DNA of 64,000 nucleotides from a virus. The stretch is from the IMG/VR virus record IMGVR_UViG_3300013233_000137, positions 5,053 to 69,052 of that record; one strand, 5' to 3'. Below are positions 3,021 to 60,703 of the stretch, piece by piece. A program made the translations under genes and the position numbers. Every line of letters starts with the position of its first letter. Within the stretch, counting starts at the first letter, position 1. Under the pieces are notes generated by a model that made no database searches, was not told where the DNA came from, and saw only the letters and a program-made list of their open reading frames with translations.

Positions 3021-3807
3021 TAGGTGGTAGCTCCTGATTTAGTAAATCAATATAGCAAGAGATAAACAGGGCAGCTACTTGTGGCACTATAGCATTGCCG
3101 TATGCAGCAATTTCAGATGAATATCTGGGTACCCCATAAGCCACTGGATGAAGGCCGGATTTAGTTGGGCGGAGTTTTCCATCTCGACATTTAAGCCAGT
3201 CACAATTATACCAAGAATTTGGCGTGGAAGGGAGTCTAATCTTTTTTGCTTTATCCAATAACTGGTATTTATATTGTCCTTCCAATCTCTTGCACAAGGA
3301 GTTATCCATCCTTTCAGCAATAAACCAGAGTCTGGATCTTTTATGTGGCGCTCCGATACTTGCAGCGCATATATCCACCGCCGCAATGGCGTAGCCTTCA
3401 TCTTCCAAGTTAGTCGATACAATATCGAACCATGCGAGCCCACCCTTCGACGCAACTTGCTCGCCAAAGATGATTGGAGGTAAGCACTTCTTGATGAGAT
3501 CGTACCAGATAGGCCACAAGTGTCTTTCATCTTTAACTCCTTTCCTTTTTCCTGCCCTACTAAAAGGTTGACAAGGGCAAGAACCTGTCCATACCGGGAT
3601 ATTTGGCCAGTTAGCCATTCGTAATGCTATACTCCACCCTCCTATTCCAGCGAAAAAATGACATTGCTCATAATGGATTAAATCTTTAGCTTTGACATCT
3701 AATATACTTCTATTATCTATTACGCCTGGTTTGATAACATTAGCTTGAGCAAGATACCGTAAAGCTGCTGAACATTTGAGGTTGTTCTCATTGTAATATG
3801 CTGCCAT
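3004..3807 (-). CDS. C5 cytosine DNA methyltransferase (alpha polypeptide)
   Basis: Motif I FFAGIGG, IV GSCPCQPFS, VI GEQV, VIII PHKRSR, X GNAIVP. Confidence 0.92.
   Translation of the reverse strand: MAAYYNENNLKCSAALRYLAQANVIKPGVIDNRSILDVKAKDLIHYEQCHFFAGIGGWSIALRMANWPNIPVWTGSCPCQPFSRAGKRKGVKDERHLWPIWYDLIKKCLPPIIFGEQVASKGGLAWFDIVSTNLEDEGYAIAAVDICAASIGAPHKRSRLWFIAERMDNSLCKRLEGQYKYQLLDKAKKIRLPSTPNSWYNCDWLKCRDGKLRPTKSGLHPVAYGVPRYSSEIAAYGNAIVPQVAALFISCYIDLLNQELPPNATDL
3087..3530 (-). CDS. Nested alternative-frame ORF, candidate methyltransferase beta polypeptide
   Basis: WITPCARDWKD and motif-IX-like QLNPAFIQWLMGYP; true start uncertain. Confidence 0.6.
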   Translation of the reverse strand: MKDTCGLSGTISSRSAYLQSSLASKLRRRVGSHGSILYRLTWKMKATPLRRWIYALQVSERHIKDPDSGLLLKGWITPCARDWKDNINTSYWIKQKRLDSLPRQILGIIVTGLNVEMENSAQLNPAFIQWLMGYPDIHLKLLHTAML

Positions 3808-4054
3808 GGCTCTCCAATTCCTGATTTAGTAAATCAATAATTGCCATAAGGTCCTCATCCTTGCCTTCGGCAAGGCCATGTCGCGTCTCCCTGATCAATG
3901 TTTTGATACTAAGGATATTGCATTCATCTTCGGCTTCCGCGAGATGACCAACAGCTACCCACTTATGAAGTGGGTAGCCTTTCGGAACCTCGCAAAGTAG
4001 CACAAGGGCTTGGGCAACGTGCTTCAAGGCACATTCCAAACAGTGTTTTCTCAT
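3788..4054 (-). CDS. Hypothetical protein
   Basis: ORF from MRKHCLEC, GGAGG RBS. Confidence 0.6.
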   Translation of the reverse strand: MRKHCLECALKHVAQALVLLCEVPKGYPLHKWVAVGHLAEAEDECNILSIKTLIRETRHGLAEGKDEDLMAIIDLLNQELESHGSILQ

Positions 4055-4284
4055 TGGGGCCTCCAATTGTATGTACTATCACATTCATCACAGAGCCAAT
4101 AGTCAGCATGCCATGGCTCCAATATTCCTTTCTTGCAATGTGGGCATGTTGGTGGTAGATATGACACTCGGATCTCGGAAGTTCCCAAAGATACTGCACC
4201 ATAATACTTCTCCACCTTGAACCGATGAAGCCGTAATTTCTTGTCCCCACATATGAGAGTTACATAACCATCGTCATCATACAT
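4051..4284 (-). CDS. Zinc-ribbon protein
   Basis: CPHC...CDEC. Confidence 0.55.
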   Translation of the reverse strand: MYDDDGYVTLICGDKKLRLHRFKVEKYYGAVSLGTSEIRVSYLPPTCPHCKKGILEPWHADYWLCDECDSTYNWRPQ

Positions 4285-4507
4285 ACCACTCCTCCCACAA
4301 TTCCGCCATCTCTCTACGGATCTTGGCATTCCATAGCTCCTTGATATCCCTCTGCATAGCCAAGGACTCCTCGTAGTCAGCCGGTTGTTCATATGGCCAA
4401 AGACCTAAGAGCATGCCCAATAGTACGATGTCCAACATGGCATTACCGTCAGGTGGCTCCACGTAATCAATATCTGGTAATTCCAATTCTCCCCAGTCTA
4501 GGTCCAT
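4277..4507 (-). CDS. Hypothetical acidic protein
   Basis: ORF overlapping its neighbours. Confidence 0.55.
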   Translation of the reverse strand: MDLDWGELELPDIDYVEPPDGNAMLDIVLLGMLLGLWPYEQPADYEESLAMQRDIKELWNAKIRREMAELWEEWYV

Positions 4508-4935: not shown

Positions 4936-4947
4936 GATTGTTCTCCT

Positions 4948-5520: not shown

Positions 5521-5615
5521 GGCCATTGATTTGGCCTACGGCCTTTGATTTGGCCCATGGCCTTTGATTTGACCTCGGCCTTTGATTTGACCTCGGCCTT
5601 TGATTTAGTAAATCA
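5521..5615. repeat. Half-site array: TGATTT at 5527, 5546, 5565, 5583, then full palindrome at 5601
   Basis: 18-19-bp units such as GGCCTTTGATTTGACCTC. Confidence 0.9.
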
Positions 5616-5666
5616 CTCAATATAAGTACCGTAAACAGTGATACCCTTTCCTGTTAGTATTAGTTC

Positions 5667-7446: not shown

Positions 7447-8174
7447 AGTCCTCCTTGCAGATAAGAACAGATCAGCTCACAAATCGGTGTATACTCTATA
7501 ACCGGGTCCCCACGCCTGAAGTACATCTTGTTCGGCCTATTCTTGGCAGGCCAAGATCCTGGTGCTCTTTGACTGAAGGCCACTGGGTTGGTGGTCTTCT
7601 GTACTTCTCCTCCACTCATCTTCGGCCCAGGAAAGTTGCCCTCCCACTTCTCGCCATATATCCAGAGATAGAAGGGGTTATCATAGGCCAACCATTTCAT
7701 AGAGGCCGGTGGACGCTTCCTCAGAACCATATAGGCCATGAATATGCTATTCATATGTTGATTTAGTAAATCAAACCTGTTCAACCAGCCGAATAGCCAA
7801 CCAAACTTCACCATGAACTCCGCTTGTGGTATTGGATTGAAGGGTAGAGGCAGCTCTGTATACTCACTGGCCCACCATAGTGCCGCCGGTCCAGCAAAGG
7901 ACTGCTTCTTACGTTTTATCCACCATCCGTCACAGGGCTCCCAGTCAGGACCAACTTGAATAGGGGCGAAGTTCCTGGCCTCATCACTAAGCTCAAGGAG
8001 CTGGGTTATCCACTTCTTTGAAGCTGACCAAACTACTTTATCCCCTACTATATGTGCAGCTCCACATAGCATTGAGATGTGGAATAAGCCGTCGATATAG
8101 TTAGAATACCTGAAGGGTATCACCTGACTATATCCGGTCTTGAAACTGCTTAGAACCTTTTCCCTAATACTCAT
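7443..8174 (-). CDS. Hypothetical protein
   Basis: 243-aa Trp-rich ORF with ATGA overlaps. Confidence 0.7.
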   Translation of the reverse strand: MSIREKVLSSFKTGYSQVIPFRYSNYIDGLFHISMLCGAAHIVGDKVVWSASKKWITQLLELSDEARNFAPIQVGPDWEPCDGWWIKRKKQSFAGPAALWWASEYTELPLPFNPIPQAEFMVKFGWLFGWLNRFDLLNQHMNSIFMAYMVLRKRPPASMKWLAYDNPFYLWIYGEKWEGNFPGPKMSGGEVQKTTNPVAFSQRAPGSWPAKNRPNKMYFRRGDPVIEYTPICELICSYLQGGL

Positions 8175-8788: not shown

Positions 8789-9850
8789 TTAATCCTGACG
8801 CGTTCTCCAGAATCGCGCTTCTTGCGGGATGCCATCTTTAGTTACTCCTCTATATCTAAACGTTATAATCATGCCACGTGGGAAGTGGACCGCTTCCACT
8901 TCTTCAGGGCATATCGTCTCGGGGTGCTCAATAGCCCACTCCGTGTCATTGAGCACTCGCTCCTCATCAGTGAATCCTGATAATTCAAGCCTCTTACCAT
9001 TGGAGAGCTTCACGATCATGGCCCCCATTTTCCCAAGGAGCTTCGACCCCTTATTCGTTTGCCTACCAGTGATGTAGCCGATAACCGTACCTTCCGCGTC
9101 CTCGGTCTTCTTCATCTTAAGCAGATCATGGCTTCTAATGGACCCCCACATGCTTTCTGGTTTGCGAAGCATGACACCTTCTCCTCCGGCTTCGCTAATC
9201 TCGTCAAGTGTTTGATTTACTAAATCAAGGGCCGCTGAACTCTGGAACGGTAGTTGCATTTGTGGATGTGGCCTGGTAACAGCACTTCTGGCGTATTTCT
9301 GTAGCAGCCTATAGACACTTGTGAAAGGCGTCCCCCGCTTCGGGATGTAGACCAAGCTCGAGATATCCGTATCCTCATAGATCCATTTCTGAATATCGGT
9401 GAATCGCTTTTGGAAGTTGATTACATCTATTAGTCCATCGTCGAAGACCACATCCAAACAGGGCATATCAAAGGCCCGAAGGGTGATGCCATCCCAATTA
9501 ACGCCATGGGTATTCTTGACCTTGCTCATGAGATCCTGACGCTTCATATTTCCATAAAGTTCCCCGTCTAAGGGAACTTTGGGCATAAGATCCAGATAAT
9601 CAGGAGGAGCATGGATAACATTGCCATAGCGTGACCACAAGCCAGTAGCAATTGGTTTAGCAACATACCGTTCATCCTTATCCGTATTAGCCCAAGGCAC
9701 ATTCTCCTTGAGCATCCCGCGAGTTAACCCGCCGTCCCAAAAGCATCTCATACCGTCGAGCTTCTCCGATAGGAACCAACCACCTAGACTTGGGGCTCTA
9801 GGCCCGGCTTTATAGGTTTGGGCGAGCATCAGGAATTGTCGTTTAGCCAT
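8789..9850 (-). CDS. ATP-dependent DNA ligase
   Basis: SEKLDGMR (KxDG), LDGEL, AFD, EGVMLR, LKMK. Confidence 0.92.
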   Translation of the reverse strand: MAKRQFLMLAQTYKAGPRAPSLGGWFLSEKLDGMRCFWDGGLTRGMLKENVPWANTDKDERYVAKPIATGLWSRYGNVIHAPPDYLDLMPKVPLDGELYGNMKRQDLMSKVKNTHGVNWDGITLRAFDMPCLDVVFDDGLIDVINFQKRFTDIQKWIYEDTDISSLVYIPKRGTPFTSVYRLLQKYARSAVTRPHPQMQLPFQSSAALDLVNQTLDEISEAGGEGVMLRKPESMWGSIRSHDLLKMKKTEDAEGTVIGYITGRQTNKGSKLLGKMGAMIVKLSNGKRLELSGFTDEERVLNDTEWAIEHPETICPEEVEAVHFPRGMIITFRYRGVTKDGIPQEARFWRTRQD

Positions 9851-10404: not shown

Positions 10405-10443
10405 CCTGTTCTCCCTGGGCAGGGCCGCCTCTGATTTAGTAAA

Positions 10444-11253
10444 TCATTTGAAATACCATTTCCATTTGGAGGGGAACTTTTCCATCCGCTTGGTAATGAG
10501 TTCTTTCTCTTCCCCAGGGATAGAACCTTGCCAACCGAAGTATAGCTCATGGGAATGATCATACCAAATTACGTTGTCAATTGGTACATGATTATCAATA
10601 AGCCACTTAAAGATATTATACTCCATTTTAGCATCTTCGACCTTCATTGAGAGACACTCTAACTTCTTTTCATAACTTGCTTCAAGATGTTTGAGTTCGG
10701 CCTCTTTACTAATAGCCAAGTAACGATCAATAAACTCCTTTGAAGGCATCTTATCCCTCTTGACCTTGTACTCATTGACTATAGCAATAAGTTGTAGAAG
10801 TGGCAAGTCGGCTTCCTTTAGGTACGAGACACCTAAACAAGCCTCGCACCACTCCCCTTCCTTACGATCTGTATATTGCTTTCCGCAATAACCACACCTT
10901 ACTGTTTGTGAACGGGTCTCAACCATCTCAGATGTTTGTTCTAACCAGTAACCGGTGTAGGTTAGGCCATGAGAATCACGGTAGTGCCGCCAGTCAAAGA
11001 TACGTGCACCAGATTCAGCGATGCAACCATCTACAGTATTCCATTGATCTTGGAATAGGAACAAGGGATCGAGCTCGACATCTTTGCCGTCATACTCTTT
11101 AACTTGTGCATGAAACTCATAGTGACTCGGATCCATATCATAGGCGTCGAACTCATGTAGGCCCATGCCTTTGAGTTTGGTACGCAATTCTTTATACCCT
11201 TCTTTGGTTGCGAAGTCGAACCAATGTAGCTTAGTCCTTAAGATTGTTTTCAT
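10444..11253 (-). CDS. Hypothetical protein with CxxC pairs
   Basis: 269-aa ORF; stop codon lies in the palindrome at 10432. Confidence 0.7.
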   Translation of the reverse strand: MKTILRTKLHWFDFATKEGYKELRTKLKGMGLHEFDAYDMDPSHYEFHAQVKEYDGKDVELDPLFLFQDQWNTVDGCIAESGARIFDWRHYRDSHGLTYTGYWLEQTSEMVETRSQTVRCGYCGKQYTDRKEGEWCEACLGVSYLKEADLPLLQLIAIVNEYKVKRDKMPSKEFIDRYLAISKEAELKHLEASYEKKLECLSMKVEDAKMEYNIFKWLIDNHVPIDNVIWYDHSHELYFGWQGSIPGEEKELITKRMEKFPSKWKWYFK

Positions 11254-11303
11254 AACGTTCTCCTGATTGATTTAGGCGGCTCTGCCGCCATTGATTTACT
11301 AAA

Positions 11304-11507
11304 TCACACATGTAGAAAAAGTCTTTGTCCTTTGGACTCGATCCAATAGGATGCGACATTGGAGTAACAGGTGGCATATACCCTATACCATCTGTTACTA
11401 TGGAAAGCCTTTTGATTGGTGGCTATCCTTTTCCCATATCCATAGTGAGTACGAGGAGCCGGATCGGCCTTTATCTCTGTATCGTATGGCAAATATTTGA
11501 TGCCCAT
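11304..11507 (-). CDS. Hypothetical protein
   Basis: ORF; stop codon lies in the palindrome at 11292. Confidence 0.6.
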   Translation of the reverse strand: MGIKYLPYDTEIKADPAPRTHYGYGKRIATNQKAFHSNRWYRVYATCYSNVASYWIESKGQRLFLHV

Positions 11508-12830: not shown

Positions 12831-12872
12831 TCTATTCTCCTGGTTGATTGATTTGGTAAATCACTGCTCTCT

Positions 12873-13145
12873 AATTGATTTGTGTAATTGATTTCCTATA
12901 TTGAGTAAATCAAAATTCTGAATCATCCACACCTGGTTGACATAATAATGTAAAAGGTAAATACATTATTATTATACCACAATAACCGTAATATGCAACT
13001 AAAAAATTTTATAATTCGTGTAACCTATTGGTATATAAGGAATAGAAAAATAAAATTTTACTTGACAAGATTTTGGAATAATAATTGCATATTGTTTTGA
13101 TATCTTGATTAAATCAAAATTCTAAATCAATTACGTAAATCAATT
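12873..13145. promoter_or_regulatory. AT-rich control region bracketed by inverted compound half-site elements
   Basis: 12873-12926 and 13091-13145 are imperfect inverted repeats of TGATTT/AAATCA half-sites at 13-bp pitch. Confidence 0.75.
12971..12998 (-). promoter_or_regulatory. Sigma70-type promoter for the leftward accessory operon
   Basis: Minus strand TTGCAT-16 bp-TATAAT with TG extension. Confidence 0.65.
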
Positions 13146-15024: not shown

Positions 15025-17165
15025 TTTATCTTAAGAAGTGGAATTATTTCCTTGTTCTTCTTCACAAATGTCTCCACGATGTTGGTAGCTTGATTTACTA
15101 AATCAGGAAGCATAGGTGCCATTATCTCATCATGGACATTCATAGGCATTATATGCCACTTACAAATGCCTCTTGGCTGTAACTCCCATAACTCATACTG
15201 TAGTTGCTTGGTCAGTGTCGCTCCTGGAGACTGGATAACATGGTTACCAGCAGCCCGCATATTAGCACTTTGAATCTGGAAGGCCGCGCCGTATAGGGCA
15301 CTTTGCAATGCCCCTACAGCCGTTTGTTGGCGGTCACGCCTAGTGACCTTGAGCTTGTAGCGCTTCCACTCTTTAGGTGGCTCTTGGGCCAGATCATATA
15401 GGGCTTTACAAATCTTATTCTCAAGGGTGAAGTATCTCTTGAAGCCAAACATACTTTCAATATATTCTTTGGGTTCATGCCATTCCACGGCGGTGCCGAT
15501 GCCATTAGGCTGACGCATACTGCAAAACATGTCAAAGATCTTTTGCCTAGCGGCGGCCACCCCAGTGTAATCTTTACCGAAGTCCTCGAAAGCCTTGACC
15601 GCGATGTCATGCGGTATGCCAAGCTTCGACTCTAAAGTAAACTCTGTACCCCCATAACCCATACCAAATATACCTTGCTTACCATCTTTATACCGCGTTC
15701 CGTTGATGTACTTGTTATTGAATACTCCGGCCTTCTCCTCGGCCATCACCTCCTCATATGTGCATCCGGGATACAACTTCGTGGCGAAGATCGCATGGAT
15801 CTTCTTACCAGATAGTAATTGCTCTCGGAGGTTCTTATCTTTCCACTCCGCCTCCATAAGACTTACCTCAAAGGAGGAGAAGTCGCCTCCACATAATACC
15901 ATGCCGTCAGGGGACAGAGGGAATTTCGATCGAACCTTACCATCTTTCTTGATACCTTGGGGGTTGAGACCATCGGAACCGGACATCCTTGTACTTTTGG
16001 TGCCGATGATTCGGAAGCCGGCGTGGAACTTTCCAGCTTTGATAAGCTTGTCATATAATTCAACTTCCTTTTGGGCTTCACGGGCATTCATAACTTCTCT
16101 AGCGGCCTTAGCAGCGGGGTGGTCGCCCCACTTCATTACCTCTTGTAGTATGACCTTCCCCGTTCCTTTCATCACGATCTTCTCGGTATCACTCATATTC
16201 ATAGTGATATACTTCATAACCATATTGGGGGCAGTAGGGGTACCCTCGAAGGCCAAATGTGCTTGCTTCCTTAGTTCCTTCAGGCCTGAGATATCGACCT
16301 TATAGCCTTTCCATCTTACGGCGGCAACCATACAAGCTAATTCGGAATCTACATCCCCAGTAGGAGGGGAGCCAAAGTATTTATACAAATCCCTGGTGTA
16401 GATAACATCGTTCTCAGCGTACATCTTACCGAAACGATTGAAGGCCCAGTAGGAGATATGGTGCCTAATGACCTCTGGCCAGTTGCTACCATAGGGAACG
16501 TACTTATCCTCCTTTGGATACCAGGTCTTGTCGATACCAATGTCCCCTAGCAGTAGTATTCGATCTTCCTCAATACCAAGCGCATGTAAGGCCAAGGCTT
16601 TCAGGGCTGTACTTGGCTCGAACTTCATCTCCAAATCCTTGAACATCGGATCATCGGTGTCTCGGACTTGCCATTGTGGAGCCTTGCGTTTACGTCTTGC
16701 AAAGTAAATATTATTAAGCGGTATAAGTTCCTCAAGCTTCTTGGCCAGGTTCTCTGCCAATATAGTTGGTATACGTTTAATACGTATTGGCTTACGATTC
16801 ATCGTCGATTGAAAAGGACCTTTACGAGCATGGAGCATTAGGTCTAAGGCAGCTTTAGGACGTAAGCATGGTCCCTCTTGAGATGGCACTTCTTGATTCG
16901 CTAAATCAATTATGATATCTTCAGGATATGCGTCGTAATCATGGTGCAGACGTAACATATTATAGATCTTGGAGAGCTGGAACTGGTCGAAGACCAGATT
17001 GAAGCCACATACCTCATTAGCCATCATATCCTCGATGAGAGTTAAGGTATCTATAATCGGCAGCTTCCAAATGTTATGGAGGACAACTGGGCCATCATCA
17101 ATGGCATACTGGATTAAGACTGCTGGACCGTGGAGACCGCAGGTTTCGGTGTCATAGAAGTACAT
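14988..17165 (-). CDS. polA: Family A DNA polymerase with 3'-5' exonuclease
   Basis: Exo YDTETCGL, FNLVFD, YAENDV; pol motif A DFSSFE, B KDGKQGIFGMGYG, C VHDE. Confidence 0.92.
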   Translation of the reverse strand: MYFYDTETCGLHGPAVLIQYAIDDGPVVLHNIWKLPIIDTLTLIEDMMANEVCGFNLVFDQFQLSKIYNMLRLHHDYDAYPEDIIIDLANQEVPSQEGPCLRPKAALDLMLHARKGPFQSTMNRKPIRIKRIPTILAENLAKKLEELIPLNNIYFARRKRKAPQWQVRDTDDPMFKDLEMKFEPSTALKALALHALGIEEDRILLLGDIGIDKTWYPKEDKYVPYGSNWPEVIRHHISYWAFNRFGKMYAENDVIYTRDLYKYFGSPPTGDVDSELACMVAAVRWKGYKVDISGLKELRKQAHLAFEGTPTAPNMVMKYITMNMSDTEKIVMKGTGKVILQEVMKWGDHPAAKAAREVMNAREAQKEVELYDKLIKAGKFHAGFRIIGTKSTRMSGSDGLNPQGIKKDGKVRSKFPLSPDGMVLCGGDFSSFEVSLMEAEWKDKNLREQLLSGKKIHAIFATKLYPGCTYEEVMAEEKAGVFNNKYINGTRYKDGKQGIFGMGYGGTEFTLESKLGIPHDIAVKAFEDFGKDYTGVAAARQKIFDMFCSMRQPNGIGTAVEWHEPKEYIESMFGFKRYFTLENKICKALYDLAQEPPKEWKRYKLKVTRRDRQQTAVGALQSALYGAAFQIQSANMRAAGNHVIQSPGATLTKQLQYELWELQPRGICKWHIMPMNVHDEIMAPMLPDLVNQATNIVETFVKKNKEIIPLLKIKWKEGIQSWGEK

Positions 17166-17632
17166 ACTCCTCTCCTCCAAACCCCTACAAGATACCATGG
17201 ACGCTCGACTTTGTGTAGTTCAAAATCTGGCAGATCAGCTTTACCCCATAGACTACGGTGACGATTGTAGATATTACCATAGTAGAAAGAGTTAGGGCCT
17301 ATATTCAAATTCTGTGACCATTTATAAGGCGTTAAGAGGATTATCTCCTTATCGCATATCTTCTTGGCCTGCTCAAGAACCTGGAAGCCACGTGGCTTAG
17401 TGAGATGCTCAATAAAGTCCAGCATTAGAATAATATCGAACTTCCATGACATGTCCAAATCTCCGAACTCCATATTACGGACAATGGTGGGGCTATATGA
17501 CTCCTCGACATCAATGGTAGTAACCCTATTGAAATGCTTCGAGATCTTCTTGTCACCACAACCTATATCAAGTATTGTGGGATTCTCATATAAGGCAACA
17601 CGTTGATTTACGAAATCAGCTAGACTTTTCAT
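17114..17632 (-). CDS. Class I SAM-dependent methyltransferase
   Basis: ILDIGCG, FDIILMLDFIEHL. Confidence 0.85.
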   Translation of the reverse strand: MKSLADFVNQRVALYENPTILDIGCGDKKISKHFNRVTTIDVEESYSPTIVRNMEFGDLDMSWKFDIILMLDFIEHLTKPRGFQVLEQAKKICDKEIILLTPYKWSQNLNIGPNSFYYGNIYNRHRSLWGKADLPDFELHKVERPWYLVGVWRRGVCTSMTPKPAVSTVQQS

Positions 17633-21671: not shown

Positions 21672-21754
21672 TTGAGCTCCTTGAGATTAGTATGGCCTGG
21701 GACCATCACTAGGCCCCAGGCTGATTTAGTAAATCACTTCCAAGCCATACAATG

Positions 21755-22930: not shown

Positions 22931-22984
22931 TTTGTTTCTCCTATATTAAAACGACTATCAATCTACATAGATTGATTTGATTTA

Positions 22985-24362: not shown

Positions 24363-24418
24363 ATAGGAAGACGTATTAGTCGCTGGAAATTGATTTAGTA
24401 AATCAGAAAGGAGGACCA

Positions 24419-41630: not shown

Positions 41631-41653
41631 AGTATCTCCTTTGATTTACTAAA

Positions 41654-44427: not shown

Positions 44428-44514
44428 CTTTGCTCCTTGCGGCAGGGCCGCTTGATGCTGGCCTTGCCAGCTTTGATTTACTAAATCAATGGCCACGGGC
44501 CAAATCAATGGCCG

Positions 44515-48400: not shown

Positions 48401-49474
48401 CGTAGCCAGTGCCAATCTATTGGCCTGCTCAAGGAAACCAAAGACCTCTGCACCATGGGCAACCTGATTTGAGAGAGTCTGATAGGCCGCTTCAGTTTGA
48501 TTTAGTAAATCAATTCCAAAGGAATCACTAAGCTCCCTCAATCCTCTGGCCCATTCCTCTGTAGACAATTGGTTCTGCTGGGAGATCGTACGAACCTCTG
48601 CTATCTTAATACTGAATTCCGTGGCCCTTGTTATAGACTCCTTTAACTGACTAATAAAGGTGAAGAGCACACGGCGAATAGCCTGAGCCGCAATAATACG
48701 CAGCATAGACTTCCAAGATAACGTGAACTCCGCAAGCCGTTTACCGGTTTTCTGTAGACTTCGATCTAAGGTCGGAAGGTTACCAGAAATATTAGTTATC
48801 CGGCCATTAGTTCTTGTTATTGTAGCATTGAAAGTCTTACCTTGTGCATCTAAGCCTTTCCAGGTCTCGATAAGCCTATTATTACTTGTACTAATCCTCG
48901 GAATGATCTGTAGATTCTTGAGCAATCCGCGATTACGTAAATCAGTAAGTGCAGCAAATTGAGCAGTAGCCCTAGCTACCTGGGCTTCCAACTTCTTCTG
49001 GGCATTGATTTGGGCGTGAGTGGCAAATATTTCTTTGGTCTTGACACCGAGCAATTTACCTTCTGCATCGGCATCAATAGTGATCTTCTTTGCGGCACTA
49101 TCAAGACCTTTTATTTGTTGTTTAACTAATCTATTTTGTTCATCATATGCTTTATTTTGTTCCAGAATTGTCCCTATTAGCTTCTTCCGGATAGCATTGG
49201 CATTTGCAGCTTCCTTATTGCCCTTACCAGTTGAGGGACCTAATTTAGCTTGAGTCGCAAGAAGTTGCTCAATAGTTTTTATGAGATTAGAGAGGTTAGC
49301 AGTTTTATTCACTGATTCATTAAACAGAGCTGCTTGCTTAGTGAATACCTCCATAGCGGAGTTTACAGCTATTAAGGCATCTCTTAATGTATTTAATTTC
49401 GTAGCAGAGTCTCCGACATTGAAAACAATGTCGGCTCCAAACTGCTCAATGCCATACCATAATCTATATCTCAT
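45464..49474 (-). CDS. Tape measure protein
   Basis: 1336 aa, helical/coiled-coil, hydrophobic mid-segment, C-terminal DSIPAMLSPGEFV. Confidence 0.9.
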   Translation of the reverse strand: MRYRLWYGIEQFGADIVFNVGDSATKLNTLRDALIAVNSAMEVFTKQAALFNESVNKTANLSNLIKTIEQLLATQAKLGPSTGKGNKEAANANAIRKKLIGTILEQNKAYDEQNRLVKQQIKGLDSAAKKITIDADAEGKLLGVKTKEIFATHAQINAQKKLEAQVARATAQFAALTDLRNRGLLKNLQIIPRISTSNNRLIETWKGLDAQGKTFNATITRTNGRITNISGNLPTLDRSLQKTGKRLAEFTLSWKSMLRIIAAQAIRRVLFTFISQLKESITRATEFSIKIAEVRTISQQNQLSTEEWARGLRELSDSFGIDLLNQTEAAYQTLSNQVAHGAEVFGFLEQANRLALATVSDSATAVQFLTAIQNAYNFSLEETGKNAAKAFKIVELGRVRLNEMSQTIGQLAVPAKQLNIRFSELGAAVDTITKRGIPFNEAQTLLRNVMLSLIRPTDTMKGLIRELGFSSGEAMIAALGFGGALAEIEKRTKGSSTEIAKFFRRIRGTVGDMVFAGKGLKDYRENFKKIENAGKSFANAQKIIFQSAGKNIQVEVNKIKNFFTNDFGKDVVEVLSLVNRKLISLTTIVKTLASAFEIVLVPAIFLAIAATKTLKRALTSLNIAVVVASIIGGVLKVAIDSYTSSLEEAAKASEKFRLRQIEDAKKITDALVNNAFKSYDKIKTIALKAIAAIRSANFKLSDDQIALDKNIGKGIASAYGEVKKSLKAGLKGITDSIKEANKLADDAANRIVDLRRELERKLFEGVLGKIEDPTRQIEAIKARIKNLKLRTINVGVDKQAVDDARNAYKEIATLQTLIDNIQKGANKNSKRELELREKIKRADEDIAKVRRKQHSDELKALDKIRRASKSGEAVGITTKNGKTIVDTSNTRAQAADAARLQKQADSEQRIANLVKKRNDLVNQLTKTKKKEIGIGVKLFNIQSARLKLLKDQIKFEEELRIKAKKVTQEREAAAAIQRKNIADIQDAYVEVANITATGLVKEDDLKKQKKNIEDSLKSIKAFRETLAEKGAGLDEATRFRLEQKLADRRGQLNALLTANDNEQKLRGLDDQLKKRLEIIAKEKKALKTQGADAIARVEGVKNAITESVKTLLDRAVVPVTVKKDALKQLQSTFEDITATNIGALQDNLRKFERATGAIGATSLPSVDLIGKAIVSLHALQNKVVEAQKKTLEKGRESARTLKKIEAIQKKLGFSNVIKEELPKQTLTLVKILQELQKFNGTNPKTIGKAHGGQIGMDSIPAMLSPGEFVMNARSSKRFYSQLVAMNATPFARGGLVNNNVGDVNVSMQSSGNENYDVTKFGKLLRRQIRRGTLKLN

Positions 49475-49477: not shown

Positions 49478-49996
49478 TTATCCTACACTTATGACTGTTT
49501 TAAGAAGAGGTTTCTGATTTAGTAAATCACGTAGAACAGGGAATAAAGTGCTTACAATATACTTCTCTGTTTCTTCTCCTGCTTCATCCAGTGTTTGCCA
49601 AGGTGTATTCTTTATCTCTGTAGCCTCTTCCTCATTCTCAAGTAAGTAGTTAATCCCATTATGTTTATTCAGATCTTCGACCCATGATCTAAGAGAAAAA
49701 CCATATTCCTTAGAGTCCTTGAAAAATCTAGCAGAGCCTTGTCCTATGCCTGTCTGTCTGGTTTTCCCTTTACGGTTAGGTTCTTGAATGTCTGGATACT
49801 GAATAGTTACACCTACAATTATGGCTGCACGTGTTAAAGAGGCTCTAGCTTGGCCAGTCCAAGTAGGTATTGAATAGGCAACCCCTTGAACAAAATATTG
49901 TGCTGCATCTTTTAACATGAAACGAATAACTTCATCTAAAAGATTTGGAAACTCAGGATTTATACTTGGCATCTTAGATCGAACTATCCACTTCAT
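49478..49996 (-). CDS. Neck/tail completion-like protein
   Basis: IPTWTGQARAS resembles the P..TG.L..S motif of HK97 gp10-like proteins. Confidence 0.5.
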   Translation of the reverse strand: MKWIVRSKMPSINPEFPNLLDEVIRFMLKDAAQYFVQGVAYSIPTWTGQARASLTRAAIIVGVTIQYPDIQEPNRKGKTRQTGIGQGSARFFKDSKEYGFSLRSWVEDLNKHNGINYLLENEEEATEIKNTPWQTLDEAGEETEKYIVSTLFPVLRDLLNQKPLLKTVISVG

Positions 49997-50684: not shown

Positions 50685-50724
50685 CCCTCCCAGAAATTGA
50701 TTTACTAAATCAATCCTGGGAGGG
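50685..50724 (-). terminator. Hairpin after the tail tube gene with the palindrome as apical stem
   Basis: CCCTCCCAG-(palindrome at 50698)-CTGGGAGGG then ATTTT on the minus strand. Confidence 0.6.
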
Positions 50725-50730
50725 TTAAAA

Positions 50731-54682: not shown

Positions 54683-55104
54683 TACACCACTCCAAGAGAG
54701 TCTATTAAAGCTATTTTTGATATGTCAGACATCACATTCATATGAGGATATTTTCTTTTATATTCCTTACGTATCTTCTCGCTCCTTGAGTAGGCTACAT
54801 ACGGAATATTCGTATCTTCTATCTCCTCTACTACTCTTTGATTTACTAAATCAATATTAACTAGGGCACAAATTATATCTTTTTGATTGCGGCGTAAAAC
54901 AAAGATCGCATCTTCATTGGTATCGGCACATTTACTATCCATATTGCGGTAGCTAAGAGCCTTCCTTAAATAGGAACTTACGCTCCAATCATTATCTACT
55001 ATAAGGCAAAATCCTTCTGTGCAAGTCATCTGACGAATTATTACACGCGTATTTTGAGCCTTCAAGAAATAGGAGTCCACGATCTTTTTATCAAGCATCT
55101 TCAA
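54682..55104 (-). CDS. Degenerate response-regulator receiver-like protein
   Basis: CLIVDND, ALVNIDL, IPYVAYS spaced as in the REC fold. Confidence 0.5.
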   Translation of the reverse strand: MKMLDKKIVDSYFLKAQNTRVIIRQMTCTEGFCLIVDNDWSVSSYLRKALSYRNMDSKCADTNEDAIFVLRRNQKDIICALVNIDLVNQRVVEEIEDTNIPYVAYSRSEKIRKEYKRKYPHMNVMSDISKIALIDSLGVV

Positions 55105-58480: not shown

Positions 58481-58490
58481 TCCTATTCTC

Positions 58491-58937
58491 CTATGTTGCC
58501 CTATTAACCTGCATCGTCTCTGGGTCATCTAAATACGGCTTCAAATATTGCCAAGCTAAGGAGCTAGGAATACCGGCCAAAAGATGCTCTGGAACGAATG
58601 AACGGTCATAGGTAGACCTCGCACTTGCGAGTCCTTGTGATTTCATACTTAATAATTCCACTTCACGCTCAGGCTCGATACCATCAAGCAATGCAAATGC
58701 GGCTTCGGCGCAGGCATACTGGATATCGTCGGGGATCGTGGTGTCGTCATAGCGCGGAAACTGATTTGCTTGGGTATCACTATTCTTCCTACCAACGAAA
58801 TTCAGTCTATCAATACGTATCGTGGACTCTGCGAGGGCTTTGGTCTTATCGGCATCACTAGCATTATCCCAGGAATCCACATTATATCTGGAAGTGAAAT
58901 AGGTATCGGCATCAGCTACGGTAATATATGCAGTCAT
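58491..58937 (-). CDS. Head-tail adaptor (DnaT-like family)
   Basis: YITVADADTYF, QFPR, IQYACAE, LKPYL. Confidence 0.75.
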   Translation of the reverse strand: MTAYITVADADTYFTSRYNVDSWDNASDADKTKALAESTIRIDRLNFVGRKNSDTQANQFPRYDDTTIPDDIQYACAEAAFALLDGIEPEREVELLSMKSQGLASARSTYDRSFVPEHLLAGIPSSLAWQYLKPYLDDPETMQVNRAT

Positions 58938-60703
58938 TTCGCACTCCCACGGGTTTTATCTTTAATAACTACATCTTGTGTCTTGTCCTTCTGGGACTGG
59001 GTCTTCTCCAAAACTGGAGAAGAAGGATTGGCATCCAGAGCTGCTACACCTCTGGCAGCCGCATTAGTTTGAGCAAGGACTATACGGGCTGCACGTTCCG
59101 CATGTTCAACCTTGGCCTTCTCAACCTCCCCTTCGGGGTAACCCTTAGCCTCAGATGCAGTCTCAACACTTAATAGTCCCTGCTCAATATCTTGAGATAT
59201 CGTATCGGGATCAAGAACCGGAATATCGGAGTTATCGACCTCACCATATATGGTATTAAGGGTCTCTACACCAACTTTATCGGTAAGAAGTGCATGAGCA
59301 ATATCCTTTGAAAGTTCCTTCTGATAGGTCTTCGACCCCACTTGGCTACGCAGTTTGGCTTTCGACTCTGCCTCCACAACTCGTTGTGCGTCGGTTTTAA
59401 GACTATAATGAGTTGGGTACTTCACCGTAGCAGATCGTCTTGAGGACTCGTACATCGCCCATAGTTCCGCTATGCGATTCTCCCCAGATTCCAATTCCTG
59501 TCCAATGTAACTCAACCCAGCCTCCAATGACTGGGAATCCATGGCCTTCGACTCGGCACTAGCTTCACGCCTCGGGATAAGGTTTGATACGGCGAGGTTT
59601 ACGAGGAGCTTGATATCCCGTTTCAACTGCTCTTGCTTCTCCATGCTGACTCGGAGAGGCTCTGGACTGGGACTAATATAGGCAGGTCTCTCGGTGTTGA
59701 TTGGATAACGACGCCCCCGTGTCGCACCCGTCACTAACTCCTGGGCCTTACCTGTTGCCGCAGAAGCCGCAGTTCCCGGTTGATTTACTAAATCAGTTTC
59801 CGAACCATCGGCATTGTAGGTCGGGCTCGAATATGTATTATTCTGACGTAGATGACCGGAGACTCGCCTTGGGTCATACTGCTCTGTATAGAATGGGAAA
59901 TTGGATTTGAAGCTATAGTTCATATCCGCCGAGGCGAGGTTCAGAAGTGATATCTGAATATCAGCCACGTCTGTTAGGAGGGACTGACTTAACTCCATAG
60001 TAAGGAATGGGATATTAGGGATGTTGAGTACTCTCTCCGATATCTGCTCACCGTCCTTATCATACAAGATCGCCAATACGCCTTCGGAGACTAACCGCAG
60101 ATAACGGTACTGCTTGACCAATTTGATTGGGAGCTGTGTTAGGGGATCGGTCTCATACACATGGTCTCTAAGTAGTATCGCAGCAAACTGCCCGGGGTTG
60201 TCATCTAAATACGACCAAGAACGAATGTCTTGAGCCTCATAGGTATAGATATAAGGGTTCTTACCTATCTGCTCAAGCTGTGTGGCTCCGGGCTCATTAG
60301 TCATATCGACGAAGATCCCTACCTTCCCGATGGAGAGCAAACCTGGAAGGACGCTTGCACCAATAAAATTATTCATGGTACTTGACTTCCGGTCCACGCC
60401 TTTGTCTCTACCAGCCACGGCATTCATATAGCTCGGAGTGCCCTCGCGACGGGTGATGTCCACCATCCTCTGGAAGATCGAGTTCTTGATCTCGTTGATA
60501 GCCGCCTTAGCGAAGGCTGGGACATAGGAGATCTTCTTACGGTTAGAGAAATCCCACTTGTCCTCCCGCTGAGAGAACTTCTGAAGGTACTCCTCAAGGA
60601 AGGCATGACCACCCTCATAGGCTAAGGCATACTTATCCCAGAGTTCTATCATCTTCTCGTAAGTGGGGTGTTTAACTTGGTAGATCATTCTATATCCTAT
60701 CAA
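58934..60703 (-). CDS. Portal protein
   Basis: 589 aa following the terminase; HPTY, YEGG, SAESK. Confidence 0.82.
   Translation of the reverse strand: MIGYRMIYQVKHPTYEKMIELWDKYALAYEGGHAFLEEYLQKFSQREDKWDFSNRKKISYVPAFAKAAINEIKNSIFQRMVDITRREGTPSYMNAVAGRDKGVDRKSSTMNNFIGASVLPGLLSIGKVGIFVDMTNEPGATQLEQIGKNPYIYTYEAQDIRSWSYLDDNPGQFAAILLRDHVYETDPLTQLPIKLVKQYRYLRLVSEGVLAILYDKDGEQISERVLNIPNIPFLTMELSQSLLTDVADIQISLLNLASADMNYSFKSNFPFYTEQYDPRRVSGHLRQNNTYSSPTYNADGSETDLVNQPGTAASAATGKAQELVTGATRGRRYPINTERPAYISPSPEPLRVSMEKQEQLKRDIKLLVNLAVSNLIPRREASAESKAMDSQSLEAGLSYIGQELESGENRIAELWAMYESSRRSATVKYPTHYSLKTDAQRVVEAESKAKLRSQVGSKTYQKELSKDIAHALLTDKVGVETLNTIYGEVDNSDIPVLDPDTISQDIEQGLLSVETASEAKGYPEGEVEKAKVEHAERAARIVLAQTNAAARGVAALDANPSSPVLEKTQSQKDKTQDVVIKDKTRGSAK

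What the first reader, a model, noticed from the sequence alone, without database searches (positions are those of the whole stretch)
3035..59795. The palindrome is written into core proteins as DL[VL]N[QH]
Seen: at least 18 exact copies lie inside CDSs, including ligase 9213, polymerase 15091, helicase 18847, primase 25028, radical SAM 30532, tail hub 36250, tape measure 46707 and 48498, and portal 59781. All use the only stop-free frame, GAT TTA STA AAT CA. Variants give DLSNQ, DLRNQ, DLQNQ and DFVNQ. Where the centre change removes the stop, a second frame is used: LIYQIK at 12728 and 13185, LILQIN at 38180. Inference: selection for a DNA site is strong enough to fix codons and probably amino acids, as with DNA uptake sequences. 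This favours a spacing-dependent role over promoter-proximal repression.
Basis: partly seen in the sequence, partly recalled or inferred. Interest (0 to 1): 0.82.

Follow-up and report, generated by a model that had tools for sequence, protein, structure and literature searches.

The report
Phage protein-binding palindrome written into genes
An uncultivated phage keeps about one copy every 2 kb of a 15-base palindrome, most likely a docking site for its own ParB-type DNA-binding proteins, and where no spacer DNA is free it forces the site into essential genes, changing their amino acids.

Summary
Confirmed. The motif is the 15-mer TGATTTASTAAATCA: 33 exact copies in the window and 37 in the 69-kb phage record, against 0.01 expected. 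Eighteen window copies lie inside genes, all read GAT TTA STA AAT CA. That frame is forced, because the other two hold TGA or TAA.

Selection acts on the DNA.
- DL[VL]N[QH] is spelled with the motif codons in 24 of 26 cases here and 23 of 23 in a relative with 65-70% nucleotide identity.
- Ligase and primase keep every motif base in three phages. More distant homologues without the motif carry unrelated residues there.
- The helicase site was made from ELLEK.

Half-sites vary independently and the hairpin is weak, so this looks like a site for a dimeric protein.

The only recognised site-specific binders shared by all three phages are two ParB/Noc/KorB-like proteins. No ParA, integrase or Xre-type repressor was found. 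I read the copies as a tiled ParB loading or operator array (confidence 0.5).

Even spacing is significant in this phage, is only a trend in the second, and is absent in the third.

The closest precedent is the unexplained 17-bp repeats of Cluster O mycobacteriophages.

The parts
3035..3049 (.). Motif copy inside the C5-methyltransferase gene (aa 253 of 267, DLLNQ). It lies 14 nt before the start of the sigma-like gene 2496-3020.
3822..3836 (.). Motif copy inside the 92-aa ORF 3788-4066 (DLLNQ), 14 nt before the methyltransferase start. The G001 orthologue has ELLME.
7759..7773 (.). Motif copy inside the 243-aa gene 7443-8174 (DLLNQ). Orthologues have KVLRQ and SWLRQ.
9213..9227 (.). Motif copy inside the DNA ligase (DLVNQ). 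It is exact in G001 and G006. Distant motif-free ligases have QHIED or DQIEE at the five aligned positions.
15091..15105 (.). Motif copy inside the family-A DNA polymerase (DLVNQ). G006 has DLANH (1 mismatch) and G001 has EYAAK.
18847..18861 (.). Motif copy inside the SNF2-type helicase (DLLNQ). Both relatives have ELLEK, spelled with different codons.
25028..25042 (.). Motif copy inside the D5-like primase-helicase (DLVNH). It is exact in all three phages. Distant homologues have PLALH or APEEH.
27601..27615 (.). Motif copy inside the 68-aa ORF 27461-27667 (DLVNQ), 15 nt before the next start. It is exact in G001 with the centre base flipped, and has 1 mismatch in G006.
30532..30546 (.). Motif copy inside the radical SAM gene (DLLNQ). 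It is exact in G006; G001 has SIINN.
33151..33165 (.). Motif copy inside the 171-aa gene 32745-33260 (DLLNQ).
33981..33995 (.). Motif copy inside the 263-aa gene 33260-34051 (aa 19, DLVNQ). The start codon is not certain.
36250..36264 (.). Motif copy inside the 1183-aa virion-module protein (DLVNH). It is exact in G001; G006 has centre A (DLINH).
38807..38821 (.). Motif copy inside the 162-aa gene 38620-39108 (DLLNQ).
46707..46721 (.). Motif copy inside the tape measure protein (DLVNQ). It is specific to this phage.
48498..48512 (.). Motif copy inside the tape measure protein (DLLNQ). G001 has DLLDQ (2 mismatches) and G006 has ELLDQ (5 mismatches).
49515..49529 (.). Motif copy near the end of the 172-aa gene 49478-49996 (DLLNQ), 40 nt before the tape measure start.
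54839..54853 (.). Motif copy inside the 140-aa gene 54682-55104 (DLVNQ). It is specific to this phage.
59781..59795 (.). Motif copy inside the portal protein (DLVNQ), in a variable segment that carries an indel.
741..755 (.). Motif copy, probably upstream of the true start of gene 293-790 (SD+ATG lies 20 nt downstream).
2168..2182 (.). Intergenic motif copy.
5601..5615 (.). Intergenic motif copy, followed by tandem units made of a half-site (AAATCA) plus a GC hairpin.
10432..10446 (.). Motif copy whose TGA is the stop codon of gene 10444-11253.
11292..11306 (.). Motif copy whose TGA is the stop codon of gene 11304-11507.
21722..21736 (.). Intergenic motif copy, 50 nt before the start of gene 21039-21671.
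22978..22992 (.). Motif copy holding the TAG stop of the D12 methyltransferase gene, 47 nt before the start of ParB-like gene 2.
23684..23698 (.). Intergenic motif copy, 12 nt before the start of the D12 methyltransferase gene.
23859..23873 (.). Motif copy in the divergent control region, next to partial copies.
24391..24405 (.). Motif copy directly 5' of the SD of the first rightward gene. It lies 108 nt after the -10 of TTGACT-17-TATAAT and is preceded by a half-site cluster.
41642..41656 (.). Motif copy whose TGA stops gene 41654-43384. It lies 11 nt before the next start.
44474..44488 (.). Motif copy, probably upstream of the true start of gene 43573-44508.
50698..50712 (.). Motif copy, probably upstream of the true start of gene 50196-50744.
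62396..62410 (.). Intergenic motif copy, followed by tandem half-site units.
63118..63132 (.). Intergenic motif copy.
17629..18525 (-). ParB-like protein 1 (298 aa): ParB_N + HTH_ParB + KorB match, with GFRR in the CTP-motif position. Candidate binder.
21980..22930 (-). ParB-like protein 2 (316 aa): ParB_N + HTH_ParB, GLQR in the motif position, Lys/Ala-rich tail. Candidate binder.
12840..13140 (-). Promoter-like region (TTGCAT-17-TATAAT) with half-site clusters on both sides and a 1-mismatch site just before the SD of the sigma-factor gene 12153-12830.

Best explanation
TGATTTASTAAATCA is a double-stranded DNA site read by a symmetric protein dimer. The phage keeps it at about one copy per 1.9 kb.

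The site is placed preferentially in the scarce non-coding DNA: between genes, on stop codons, or just 5' of ribosome-binding sites. Where genes are long and no such DNA is free, point mutations build the site inside the gene in the only open frame. The protein there then reads D-L-[V/L]-N-[Q/H] whatever stood there before.

The most likely reader is one or both of the phage's two ParB-family proteins, which are relatives of Noc, Spo0J and KorB and have no ParA partner. In that reading the copies are parS/OB-like nucleation or loading sites. They would let a ParB-type protein cover the whole genome, acting at the early promoters as an operator and elsewhere as a tiled array for spreading, silencing or compaction.

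Shown: the site, its excess, the DNA-level selection, its origin by substitution, the independence of its two halves, and the presence and conservation of the ParB genes.

Inferred: that a ParB binds it, that it slides or spreads from it, and what that achieves.
For: Excess: 33 copies against 0.01 expected in the window, 37 in G000 and 40 in the complete relative G001.

DNA-level selection:
- 24 of 26 (G000) and 23 of 23 (G001) DL[VL]N[QH] peptides use the exact motif codons. Codon usage predicts 1-6%, and amino-acid composition predicts 0.04-0.05 such peptides per proteome.
- At identical residues outside motifs, codons are identical in only 21-25% (Leu), 31-32% (Val) and 56-66% (Asp, Asn, Gln) of cases. 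That gives P about 0.015-0.024 that five codons stay the same. Yet ligase and primase keep all motif bases in three phages.

Origin by substitution. Of the 18 coding sites, 15 have an orthologue. Seven of those are specific to this phage and mostly lack indels, for example helicase ELLEK in both relatives against DLLNQ here.

Homologues without the motif differ. At the five motif positions the primase reads PLALH or APEEH and the ligase QHIED or DQIEE.

A protein dimer rather than a hairpin:
- The centre base shows no orientation (20 G:17 C and 21:19 in gene orientation).
- In G006, positions 2 and 14 vary independently (13 GC, 8 GT, 8 AC, 5 AT of 34) and there are no compensatory 7/9 changes.
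- The predicted hairpin is worth -1 to -3 kcal/mol.

Preference for non-coding DNA: 19 of 37 copies lie in the 5.2% of the genome that is non-coding.

ParB candidates:
- Two proteins carry ParB_N + HTH_ParB, and one also matches KorB.
- Their best solved relatives are Noc, Spo0J and ParB, plus KorB for protein 1 only.
- Both are conserved in G001 and G006 at 61-71% identity.
- A site lies 47 nt before the ParB-2 start here. There are sites 55 and 166 nt before it in G001, and three near-sites before it in G006.
- No HTH_3 repressor, tyrosine integrase, resolvase or ParA (AAA_31) was found in the three genomes.

The two DNA methyltransferases and the second sigma factor are absent from G001 and G006, so they cannot be the shared reader.

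Spacing:
- CV 0.59 against 0.96 for random placement, P 0.0006.
- With the non-coding copies held fixed, coding copies fill the gaps: 0 of 20,000 simulations reached the observed CV with my manual classification, and P was 0.00015 with an automatic one.
- KorB is reported to slide up to 1.5 kb from its site (PMC11790492, abstract and passages read).
Against: No binding was tested, so the ParB link rests on co-occurrence in three related genomes. That is phylogenetically a single observation.

More distant relatives (G007-G009) carry homologues of both ParBs at 30-36% identity. They show no iterated palindrome in the loci sampled, about 20-30 kb each. These ParBs therefore do not always come with a genome-wide array.

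Many small conserved proteins have no family match and any of them could be the real reader.

Canonical parS, NBS and OB sites have even length (16 bp). This site is 7-1-7.

ParB-2 lacks the second arginine of the CTP motif (GLQR).

Even spacing is not significant in G001 (P 0.08 and 0.10). G006 has only 4 exact copies, a degenerate consensus and few sites in its virion genes. Full tiling is therefore not required in the clade.

A fragment of a further relative (L125) has a different iterated palindrome and no ParB hit, but that record is only 37% complete.
Confidence: 0.5

Rival explanations
1. The site is read by a different dimeric DNA-binding protein: an unrecognised small phage protein or a host factor. 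It would act as a dispersed operator or roadblock, in the way Cluster A mycobacteriophage repressors stop transcription at many 'stoperators'. The ParB genes would be unrelated to it.
For: The density, about one site per 2 kb, and the preference for short intergenic spaces next to gene starts resemble what I recall of stoperators. The abstract of PMC9283540, seen in the listing, says only that the sites are numerous and distributed across the genome. Six of 37 copies end 8-15 nt before a start codon. Half-site clusters plus a full site follow the two best sigma-70-like promoter regions. Many conserved small proteins have no family match. ParB homologues occur in relatives without an array.
Against: No HTH_3-type repressor, integrase or resolvase was found in the three genomes, including the complete one. 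A lysogenic immunity system is therefore not visible. As I recall them, stoperators are asymmetric and orientation-dependent; this site is symmetric with no orientation. The ParB proteins are the only recognised site-specific dimeric binders conserved across the three motif-bearing phages.
Confidence: 0.3
2. The site is the target of a DNA-modifying or DNA-cutting enzyme, such as a methyltransferase, a nickase or the VRR-NUC nuclease. It would mark or nick the genome at intervals for replication, packaging or protection.
For: The phage encodes a C5-cytosine and a D12 adenine methyltransferase, a third methyltransferase-like protein and a VRR-NUC nuclease. The centre base is always G or C in all 37 copies although A or T would also be translatable. 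Spacing is regular in this phage.
Against: The C5 and D12 methyltransferases have no homologue in G001 or G006, which keep the same site. A modification target gives no reason to accumulate sites. A symmetric nick site would produce double-strand breaks. No data on DNA ends could be obtained.
Confidence: 0.07
3. The palindrome acts as a hairpin in RNA or single-stranded DNA: a terminator, a processing site, or a translational control element next to ribosome-binding sites.
For: Several copies lie directly 5' of an SD sequence or on a stop codon. Some intergenic copies adjoin GC-rich hairpins.
Against: The hairpin is worth only -1 to -3 kcal/mol. There are no compensatory changes: positions 2/14 vary independently in G006, and 7/9 variants are never compensated in any of the three genomes. 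The sequence rather than the pairing is conserved. Eighteen copies lie inside genes, where such a signal would be harmful.
Confidence: 0.05
4. The peptide DL[VL]N[QH] itself is functional, or the 15-mer is a small mobile insertion that happens to keep the reading frame.
For: Fifteen bases equal five codons, so an insertion would stay in frame. The peptide recurs in unrelated proteins.
Against: Synonymous positions are frozen. Orthologues align without a 5-residue gap at 13 of the 15 comparable sites and carry other residues there. The exceptions are 54839 and 59781, which lie in indel-rich segments. Homologues without the motif lack the peptide.
Confidence: 0.01

Closest known systems
17-bp dyad repeats of Cluster O mycobacteriophages (Corndog and relatives), 5'-TGTTCGGNNNCCGAACA (PMC4351075; section 8 and further passages read)
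   Same: More than 30 copies per genome of about 70 kb. The 7-bp arms are invariant and the centre is variable, with no meaningful orientation. Copies lie between genes, at 5' ends of genes and inside genes. Sites are lost by single base changes, some of them non-synonymous. A ParB-like domain protein is encoded. The authors suggest a dimeric binding protein, consider a transcriptional role unlikely, and leave the function open.
   Different: The sequence is unrelated, the spacer is 3 bp rather than 1, and the host and phage lineage differ. That comparison was among near-identical genomes, so it could not show that sites are built by amino-acid-changing substitutions or that synonymous sites are frozen across diverged phages. 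No spacing test was made there.
KorB and its OB operators on plasmid RK2 (PMC11790492; abstract and passages read)
   Same: A ParB-family CTPase with an HTH binds a palindromic site present many times on a replicon of about 60 kb. Sites lie both next to promoters and far from them. The clamp slides up to 1.5 kb to silence promoters. Phage ParB-like 1 matches the Pfam KorB domain and KorB structure 8qa8.
   Different: KorB also partitions the plasmid with a ParA-type partner and needs KorA as a clamp lock. Here no ParA was found, and a KorA-like partner was not specifically looked for. The paper gives OB as 16 bp; my recollection of 12 copies and a central S is recalled, not checked. Density here is several times higher and copies lie inside essential genes.
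Noc and its NBS sites in Bacillus subtilis (PMC8429893 and bioRxiv 10.1101/2022.02.28.481274; abstracts seen in the listing)
   Same: A ParB paralogue without a ParA partner nucleates on palindromic sites scattered around a chromosome and spreads. Noc structures are the best solved match of ParB-like 1 (E 1e-17).
   Different: Noc is a host protein and its sites are 16 bp. It links DNA to the membrane to block cell division. Nothing here shows membrane binding.
Stoperators of Cluster A mycobacteriophages such as L5 (PMC9283540; abstract seen in the listing)
   Same: Numerous binding sites for one phage protein are distributed across the whole genome.
   Different: Stoperators are asymmetric, are bound by a monomeric immunity repressor, and depend on orientation (the orientation dependence is recalled). 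They belong to temperate phages. This site is symmetric and no lysogeny genes were found.
DNA uptake sequences (DUS/USS) of Neisseria and Haemophilus (recalled; no paper read here)
   Same: A DNA-level signal so abundant that many copies lie in genes, in favoured frames, and shape local peptides.
   Different: Uptake sequences are asymmetric host-genome signals read by the competence machinery. This is a phage-borne palindrome, and the host and its competence are unknown.

Membership tests
ParB-family site array (parS / NBS / OB type) | A protein with the ParB N-terminal (CTPase-fold) domain is encoded. | tested here: met
   Pfam ParB_N matches both proteins (E 6e-9 and 1e-11). Solved-structure matches are to Noc, Spo0J and ParB.
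ParB-family site array (parS / NBS / OB type) | A ParB-type helix-turn-helix DNA-binding domain is present. | tested here: met
   HTH_ParB matches at E 9e-14 (protein 1) and 9e-5 (protein 2). The KorB domain matches protein 1 at E 1e-5.
ParB-family site array (parS / NBS / OB type) | The arginine-rich CTP-binding motif (GxRR, as in GERR) is present. | tested here: inconclusive
   Protein 1 has GFRR and protein 2 has GLQR, read from alignment A1. The motif definition is recalled and nucleotide binding was not tested.
ParB-family site array (parS / NBS / OB type) | The ParB protein binds the palindromic site specifically. | not testable with these tools
   No protein-DNA modelling or assay was available. 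The only support is co-occurrence and a site just upstream of the ParB-2 gene in three genomes.
ParB-family site array (parS / NBS / OB type) | The site is a 16-bp even palindrome. | tested here: not met
   The site is 15 bp, 7-1-7, with a central G or C.
ParABS partition system | A ParA-type Walker ATPase partner is encoded. | tested here: not met
   PF13614 (AAA_31) gave 0 of 3 genomes, including the complete G001, while controls gave 14 of 14. Other ParA models such as CbiA were not searched.
Stoperator / immunity-repressor system | The site is asymmetric and its orientation is tied to the direction of transcription. | tested here: not met
   The site is a perfect palindrome. The centre base in gene orientation is 20 G:17 C in G000 and 21:19 in G001.
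Stoperator / immunity-repressor system | The phage is temperate, with a repressor and an integrase. | tested here: not met
   No Phage_integrase or Resolvase match, and no HTH_3 match over the cut-off, in 3 of 3 genomes.
Stoperator / immunity-repressor system | There are tens of sites spread over the whole genome, mostly in short intergenic spaces. | tested here: met
   37 sites, of which 19 lie in the 5.2% of the genome that is non-coding.
Cluster O-type phage dyad repeat | More than 30 copies with invariant 7-bp inverted arms, no orientation, and copies both between and inside genes. | tested here: met
   compared with PMC4351075 section 8.
Cluster O-type phage dyad repeat | The motif sequence or the phage lineage is shared with Cluster O. 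| tested here: not met
   The arms are TGATTTA rather than TGTTCGG. No Mycobacterium phage appeared among the organisms listed in the polymerase or terminase searches; not every record was listed.
DNA uptake sequence | The signal is enriched in the host genome and is read by the competence machinery. | not testable with these tools
   The host is unknown.

The most novel reading that the evidence does not exclude
A virulent phage, with no ParA and no lysogeny genes, tiles its whole genome with loading sites for its own ParB/KorB/Noc-like clamp, one roughly every sliding-range of about 2 kb. The entire chromosome would then be coated, marked as self, silenced on schedule or condensed. The need for unbroken tiling would be strong enough to overwrite residues in conserved stretches of the helicase, polymerase, primase, ligase, tape measure and portal. 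This would be a virus-encoded whole-genome ParB array. It would also offer a function for the unexplained Cluster O repeats.
Probability: 0.3. Interest if true: 0.8.

Novelty: new variant of a known kind. Interest (0 to 1): 0.55.

Why it matters
Genome-wide palindromes in phages have been described (Cluster O, 2015) but never explained. Here three diverged relatives give a clean natural experiment.
- The same 15 bases are frozen at orthologous codons while surrounding synonymous sites have randomised.
- New sites are made by replacing amino acids in essential enzymes.
- In one lineage the coding copies fall exactly where intergenic copies are missing.

This shows what the phage pays to keep the array, so the array must matter to it. 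It also points to two testable ParB-family readers in a phage that has no partition ATPase.

If a ParB binds these sites, this would extend CTP-clamp biology (KorB, Noc, VirB, BisD) to whole-genome coverage in a lytic virus. Practically, the motif is a ready-made handle: synthetic DNA carrying it, plus the two proteins, would settle the question in vitro without needing the unknown host.

Tried and rejected
Searches that led nowhere:
- Near-identical DNA in the phage collection: no match. Protein-level hits of the polymerase and terminase were all below 30% identity, so no cultured relative was found.
Only the first 80 of 117 stretches were shown, almost all single chance matches. Only L010 (G001) and L048 (G002) had several.
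- The viral scan with the ParB-2 alignment found no relative, although G001 and G006 do encode one. That blank reflects the pattern step, not absence.
- Public sequencing runs: none was listed, and no RNA holder was listed.

Ideas tested and dropped:
- Mobile 15-bp insertion: rejected, because orthologues align without a 5-residue gap at 13 of 15 sites.
- Methyltransferase target: weakened, because both methyltransferases are absent from G001 and G006.
- Promoter element for a phage sigma factor: no conserved flank beyond the 15-mer, and copies end 8-15 nt from start codons, which is too close for a promoter. A crude sigma-70 scan gave 22 hits. Only 3 have an exact site within 110 nt downstream, and one of those is antisense inside the tape measure gene.
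- Recognition-helix covariation across the three phages: both HTH regions differ in all three, so nothing could be concluded.
- Survey of other phages with ParB homologues: hits were about 30% identical. The first record opened looked like a plasmid, so I stopped the survey.
- Host inference: a terminase relative lies in a 698-kb Pirellulales MAG contig and in a contig binned as Saccharibacteria. Neither carries the motif, so no host is claimed. The repeats in L150 are collagen-like coding repeats.

Not done:
- The flanks of coding sites are about as conserved as their proteins overall (0.48 against 0.49; the flank was higher in 6 of 27 comparisons). I therefore claim no preference for variable segments.
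- Complex prediction, structure prediction, fold search, the large protein searches and the protein atlas were not used.
- Supplementary files of papers were not opened. Those of PMC4351075 and PMC11790492 might list site positions that bear on the comparison.

Full report
WHAT IS THERE

The core GATTTASTAAATC occurs 33 times in the 64-kb window, against 0.01 expected from dinucleotide-preserving shuffles. Every copy is preceded by T and followed by A, so the real unit is the 15-mer TGATTTASTAAATCA: two 7-bp arms around a central G or C. Allowing up to 2 mismatches to the 13-mer gives 52 sites against 1.84 expected.

The window is bases 5053-69052 of a 69,052-bp IMG/VR virus record. CheckV puts its completeness at 75%. 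The record holds 37 exact copies, and the reversed control pattern gives none. Nearly all genes lie on the minus strand, apart from a rightward block at 24.4-28.7 kb.

THE OBSERVATION

Placing the copies on ORFs puts 18 of the 33 window copies inside coding sequence. The rest are intergenic, lie just upstream of a better SD+ATG start, or overlap a stop codon. Six of the 37 copies in the record hold a stop codon, one of them for a doubtful ORF.

All coding copies are read GAT TTA STA AAT CA. That is unavoidable: on either strand one frame starts with TGA and another contains TAA.

Pfam and PHROGs confirm the ligase, family-A polymerase, SNF2-type helicase, D5-like primase-helicase (DUF5906), radical SAM enzyme, tape measure and portal. 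The 1183-aa 'tail hub' matched nothing, so that name is unverified.

LILQIN near 38180 is also there.

SELECTION IS ON THE DNA

Three lines of evidence agree.

First, the peptide DL[VL]N[QH] occurs 26 times in this phage's ORF set, and 24 of those are spelled with the exact motif. The other two differ by GAT to GAC. Amino-acid composition predicts 0.04 occurrences, and codon usage predicts this spelling in 1-2% of cases.

Second, I found relatives.
- A scan of viral contigs for the 15-mer led to G001, a complete 84,413-bp genome with terminal repeats and 40 exact copies.
- G001 is syntenic with the window at 64-77% nucleotide identity over most aligned blocks, with two short blocks at 86% and 92%. 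Its proteins are 29-84% identical.
- In G001, 23 of 23 such peptides use the motif spelling.
- A search with ParB-like protein 1 found a third relative, G006 (59.7 kb, 63% complete). It is equally distant from the window, for example polymerase 68% and primase 70% identical.

Third, the orthologue comparison. Of the 18 coding sites, 15 have an orthologue in G001 and/or G006.
- Ligase and primase keep every motif base in all three phages.
- The small ORF at 27601 is exact in G001 with the centre base flipped, turning Val into Leu, and has one mismatch in G006.
- The 1183-aa protein site at 36250 is exact in G001. It differs only at the free third base after the motif (CAT against CAC). G006 has one mismatch.
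- The radical SAM site is exact in G006, but G001 has SIINN.
- The polymerase site has one mismatch in G006 (DLANH), and G001 has EYAAK.
- The second tape measure site declines stepwise: DLLNQ here, DLLDQ (2 mismatches) in G001, ELLDQ (5 mismatches) in G006.
- One site (33151) could be aligned only to a paralogue and is not counted.
- Seven sites are specific to this phage. The clearest is in the helicase. Both relatives read ELLEK there, spelled with different codons, inside a well-conserved stretch, while this phage reads DLLNQ with the exact motif. That is three amino-acid replacements that together create the site.

Outside motifs, identical residues share the same codon in only 21-25% of cases for Leu, 31-32% for Val and 56-66% for Asp, Asn and Gln. 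Five codons staying identical therefore has a probability of about 0.015-0.024 per comparison.

More distant homologues come from G007-G009, whose sampled loci showed no iterated palindrome. At the primase site they read FPLALH or WAPEEH, so only the His is shared. At the ligase site they read TQHIED or ADQIEE.

It is not met anywhere. Sites arise by substitution rather than by insertion of a 15-bp unit: 13 of the 15 alignments have no gap at the site.

WHAT KIND OF SITE

The two halves behave independently.
- G006's consensus is degenerate: T[G/A]ATTT[A/G]S[T/C]AAAT[C/T]A. It has 4 exact sites, 14 with one mismatch, 15 with two and 14 with three.
- In G006, positions 2 and 14 combine as 13 GC, 8 GT, 8 AC and 5 AT of 34. 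That is exactly what independence predicts.
- Changes at positions 7 and 9 are never compensated in any of the three genomes.
- The predicted hairpin is worth only -1 to -3 kcal/mol.
- The central base shows no preference relative to the direction of transcription: 20 G:17 C here and 21:19 in G001.

Sequence is conserved, pairing is not, and there is no strand information. That is the signature of a double-stranded site read by a symmetric dimer.

The centre is G or C in all 37 copies although A or T would still be translatable. The centre base therefore belongs to the recognition.

WHERE THE COPIES SIT

Nineteen of the 37 copies lie in the 5.2% of the record that my ORF set leaves non-coding. 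Six copies end 8-15 nt before a start codon, directly 5' of the Shine-Dalgarno sequence.

The two best sigma-70-like promoter regions are TTGACT-17-TATAAT at about 24,256-24,283 and TTGCAT-17-TATAAT near 12,980. Each is followed by clusters of half-sites (TGATTT/AAATCA) and then a full or one-mismatch site just before the first gene. That first gene is a sigma factor in one case. Half-sites outside full copies are also in excess.

A crude promoter scan finds an exact site within 110 nt downstream of only 3 of 22 hits. Most copies are therefore not next to a recognisable host-type promoter.

SPACING

In this phage the gaps between copies are more even than random placement: CV 0.59 against 0.96 ± 0.15, P 0.0006, with the largest gap 4.9 kb.

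I then held the non-coding copies fixed, which leaves gaps of up to 17 kb over the long virion genes, and re-drew the coding copies at random among coding positions.
- The observed evenness was reached in 0 of 20,000 trials with my manual classification.
- With an automatic classification P was 0.00015.
- The genes that host coding copies are longer than average, median 309 aa against 165 aa.

This supports the idea that coding copies exist because a site is needed there. It does not replicate cleanly, however. In G001 the same tests give P 0.08 and 0.10, its tape measure gene has no exact copy, and most copies in its virion module are intergenic. In G006 only 7 of 47 sites (3 mismatches or fewer) lie beyond 36.4 kb, in the virion genes. 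Even tiling is therefore a feature of this lineage and not a rule of the clade.

WHO READS IT

Annotation of about 70 ORFs found these DNA-related proteins:
- two sigma factors
- a C5 methyltransferase and a D12 methyltransferase
- a VRR-NUC nuclease
- two full-length ParB-family proteins, at 17629-18525 and 21980-22930

Both ParB-like proteins have the ParB N-terminal domain and the ParB HTH, and the first also matches the KorB domain. Their best solved relatives are Noc, Spo0J and ParB, plus KorB for the first only. The first carries GFRR at the CTP-motif position. The second carries GLQR and has a Lys/Ala-rich tail.

Both are conserved in G001 and G006 at 61-71% identity. The two methyltransferases and the second sigma factor have no homologue there, even by tblastn. 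The three genomes have no tyrosine integrase, resolvase, AAA_31-type ParA, or HTH_3 repressor above threshold.

A site lies 47 nt before the ParB-2 start in this phage. In G001 there are sites 55 and 166 nt before it, and in G006 three near-sites precede it.

The ParB proteins are thus the only recognised site-specific dimeric binders shared by the three motif-bearing phages. That makes them the best candidates but does not show binding.

Two observations count against a simple link. G007-G009 carry both ParB homologues at 30-36% identity yet show no iterated palindrome in the loci sampled. Many small conserved proteins also remain unassigned.

One further relative fragment, L125 (terminase 46% identical), has its own iterated palindrome. 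It is built on ACTTAAGT, often (T)GACTTAAGTC(A), with 11 copies in 10 kb. Arrays of this kind may therefore recur with different sequences in the wider group.

MECHANISM

I commit to the following reading. The 15-mer is a nucleation or loading site of a phage ParB-family protein acting without ParA, as Noc, VirB, BisD and the repressor mode of KorB do. At the early promoters, full sites and half-site clusters would act as operators. Elsewhere, the copies would keep every part of the genome within reach of a clamp that spreads only a limited distance. KorB is reported to reach promoters up to 1.5 kb away (PMC11790492, abstract and passages).

Shown: the site, its selection and its placement. 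Inferred: binding by ParB, spreading, and the purpose (silencing, timing, compaction or self-marking).

My confidence is:
- about 0.97 that selection is at the DNA level
- about 0.85 that a dimeric protein reads the site
- about 0.5 that the protein is a ParB
- lower for any specific downstream function

COMPARISON WITH WHAT IS KNOWN

The closest precedent is Cluster O mycobacteriophages. They have 34 copies of TGTTCGGNNNCCGAACA in about 70 kb, lying between and inside genes, with no orientation. A ParB-like protein is encoded. The authors suggested a dimeric binder and doubted a transcriptional role (PMC4351075, section 8 read).

Other parallels:
- KorB-OB and Noc-NBS are the closest mechanistic models.
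- Stoperators resemble the array in being numerous and genome-wide, but not in symmetry or lifestyle.
- Uptake sequences share only the coding side-effect.

My searches found no paper that links a phage genome-wide palindrome to a ParB protein experimentally. They cover open-access papers and bioRxiv only.

VERDICT

The claim that a DNA site overrides codons and residues is well supported by new comparative evidence. The spacing argument holds for this phage only. The thing itself is a new variant of a known but unexplained kind of phage feature.

They are not independent support.

Noticed in passing
L125:3600-13050: A fragment of a more distant relative (terminase 46% identical) has its own iterated palindrome built on ACTTAAGT, often (T)GACTTAAGTC(A). 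There are 11 copies in about 10 kb of virion genes. A 29-bp tandem repeat lies at the end of its locus (L125).
   Followed up: partly
L134-L136 (G006, whole record): The third close relative keeps the same site family in degenerate form: 4 exact, 14 one-mismatch and 15 two-mismatch sites, with G/A at position 2 and C/T at position 14. The sites are concentrated in the replication half of the genome.
   Followed up: yes
window 5616-5690, 62411-62470; G000:1821-1880 and 104-170: Several intergenic copies are followed by tandem units made of the half-site AAATCA plus a short GC-rich hairpin. One copy is followed by a (TCTTGGG)n run.
   Followed up: no
window 24256-24420 and 12840-13140: Near-consensus sigma-70-type promoters are followed by dense clusters of half-sites and then a full or near-full site at the ribosome-binding site. 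This looks like operator architecture at the early promoters.
   Followed up: partly
window 3004-3807 and 22985-23671: The C5-cytosine and D12 adenine methyltransferase genes, and the sigma-like gene 2496-3020, are present only in this phage. They have no tblastn hit in G001 or G006.
   Followed up: yes
window 24419-24592 and 24589-24780: The first genes after the rightward promoter are two small Cys-rich ORFs of 57 and 63 aa. The second has a paralogue at window 90-296 and orthologues in G001 and G006. Neither matches any family.
   Followed up: no
L145 (G007:40720-40810) and L144 (G009:33340-33470): In distant relatives the spacer between ParB-2 and the primase gene holds one long inverted repeat of about 70-110 bp, in place of short iterated sites.
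   Followed up: no
L150:10001-14611 and 15680-20860: Relatives of the terminase (46% identical), the portal and a small-terminase-like gene lie in a 698-kb contig of a Pirellulales MAG. Genes with collagen-like Gly-X-Y repeats lie next to them. This may be a prophage or an assembly chimera.
   Followed up: partly
L151 (ON073792.1, whole record): This record is named as an Aphanizomenon phage. Its annotation shows ParA, ParB, a replication protein and polysaccharide genes but no virion genes, so it looks like a plasmid.
   Followed up: no
window 28681-32057: A radical SAM gene, a glycosyltransferase-like gene and unassigned neighbours lie after the virion genes. Cluster O phages also carry methyltransferase and glycosyltransferase genes within their structural operon (PMC4351075).
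   Followed up: no
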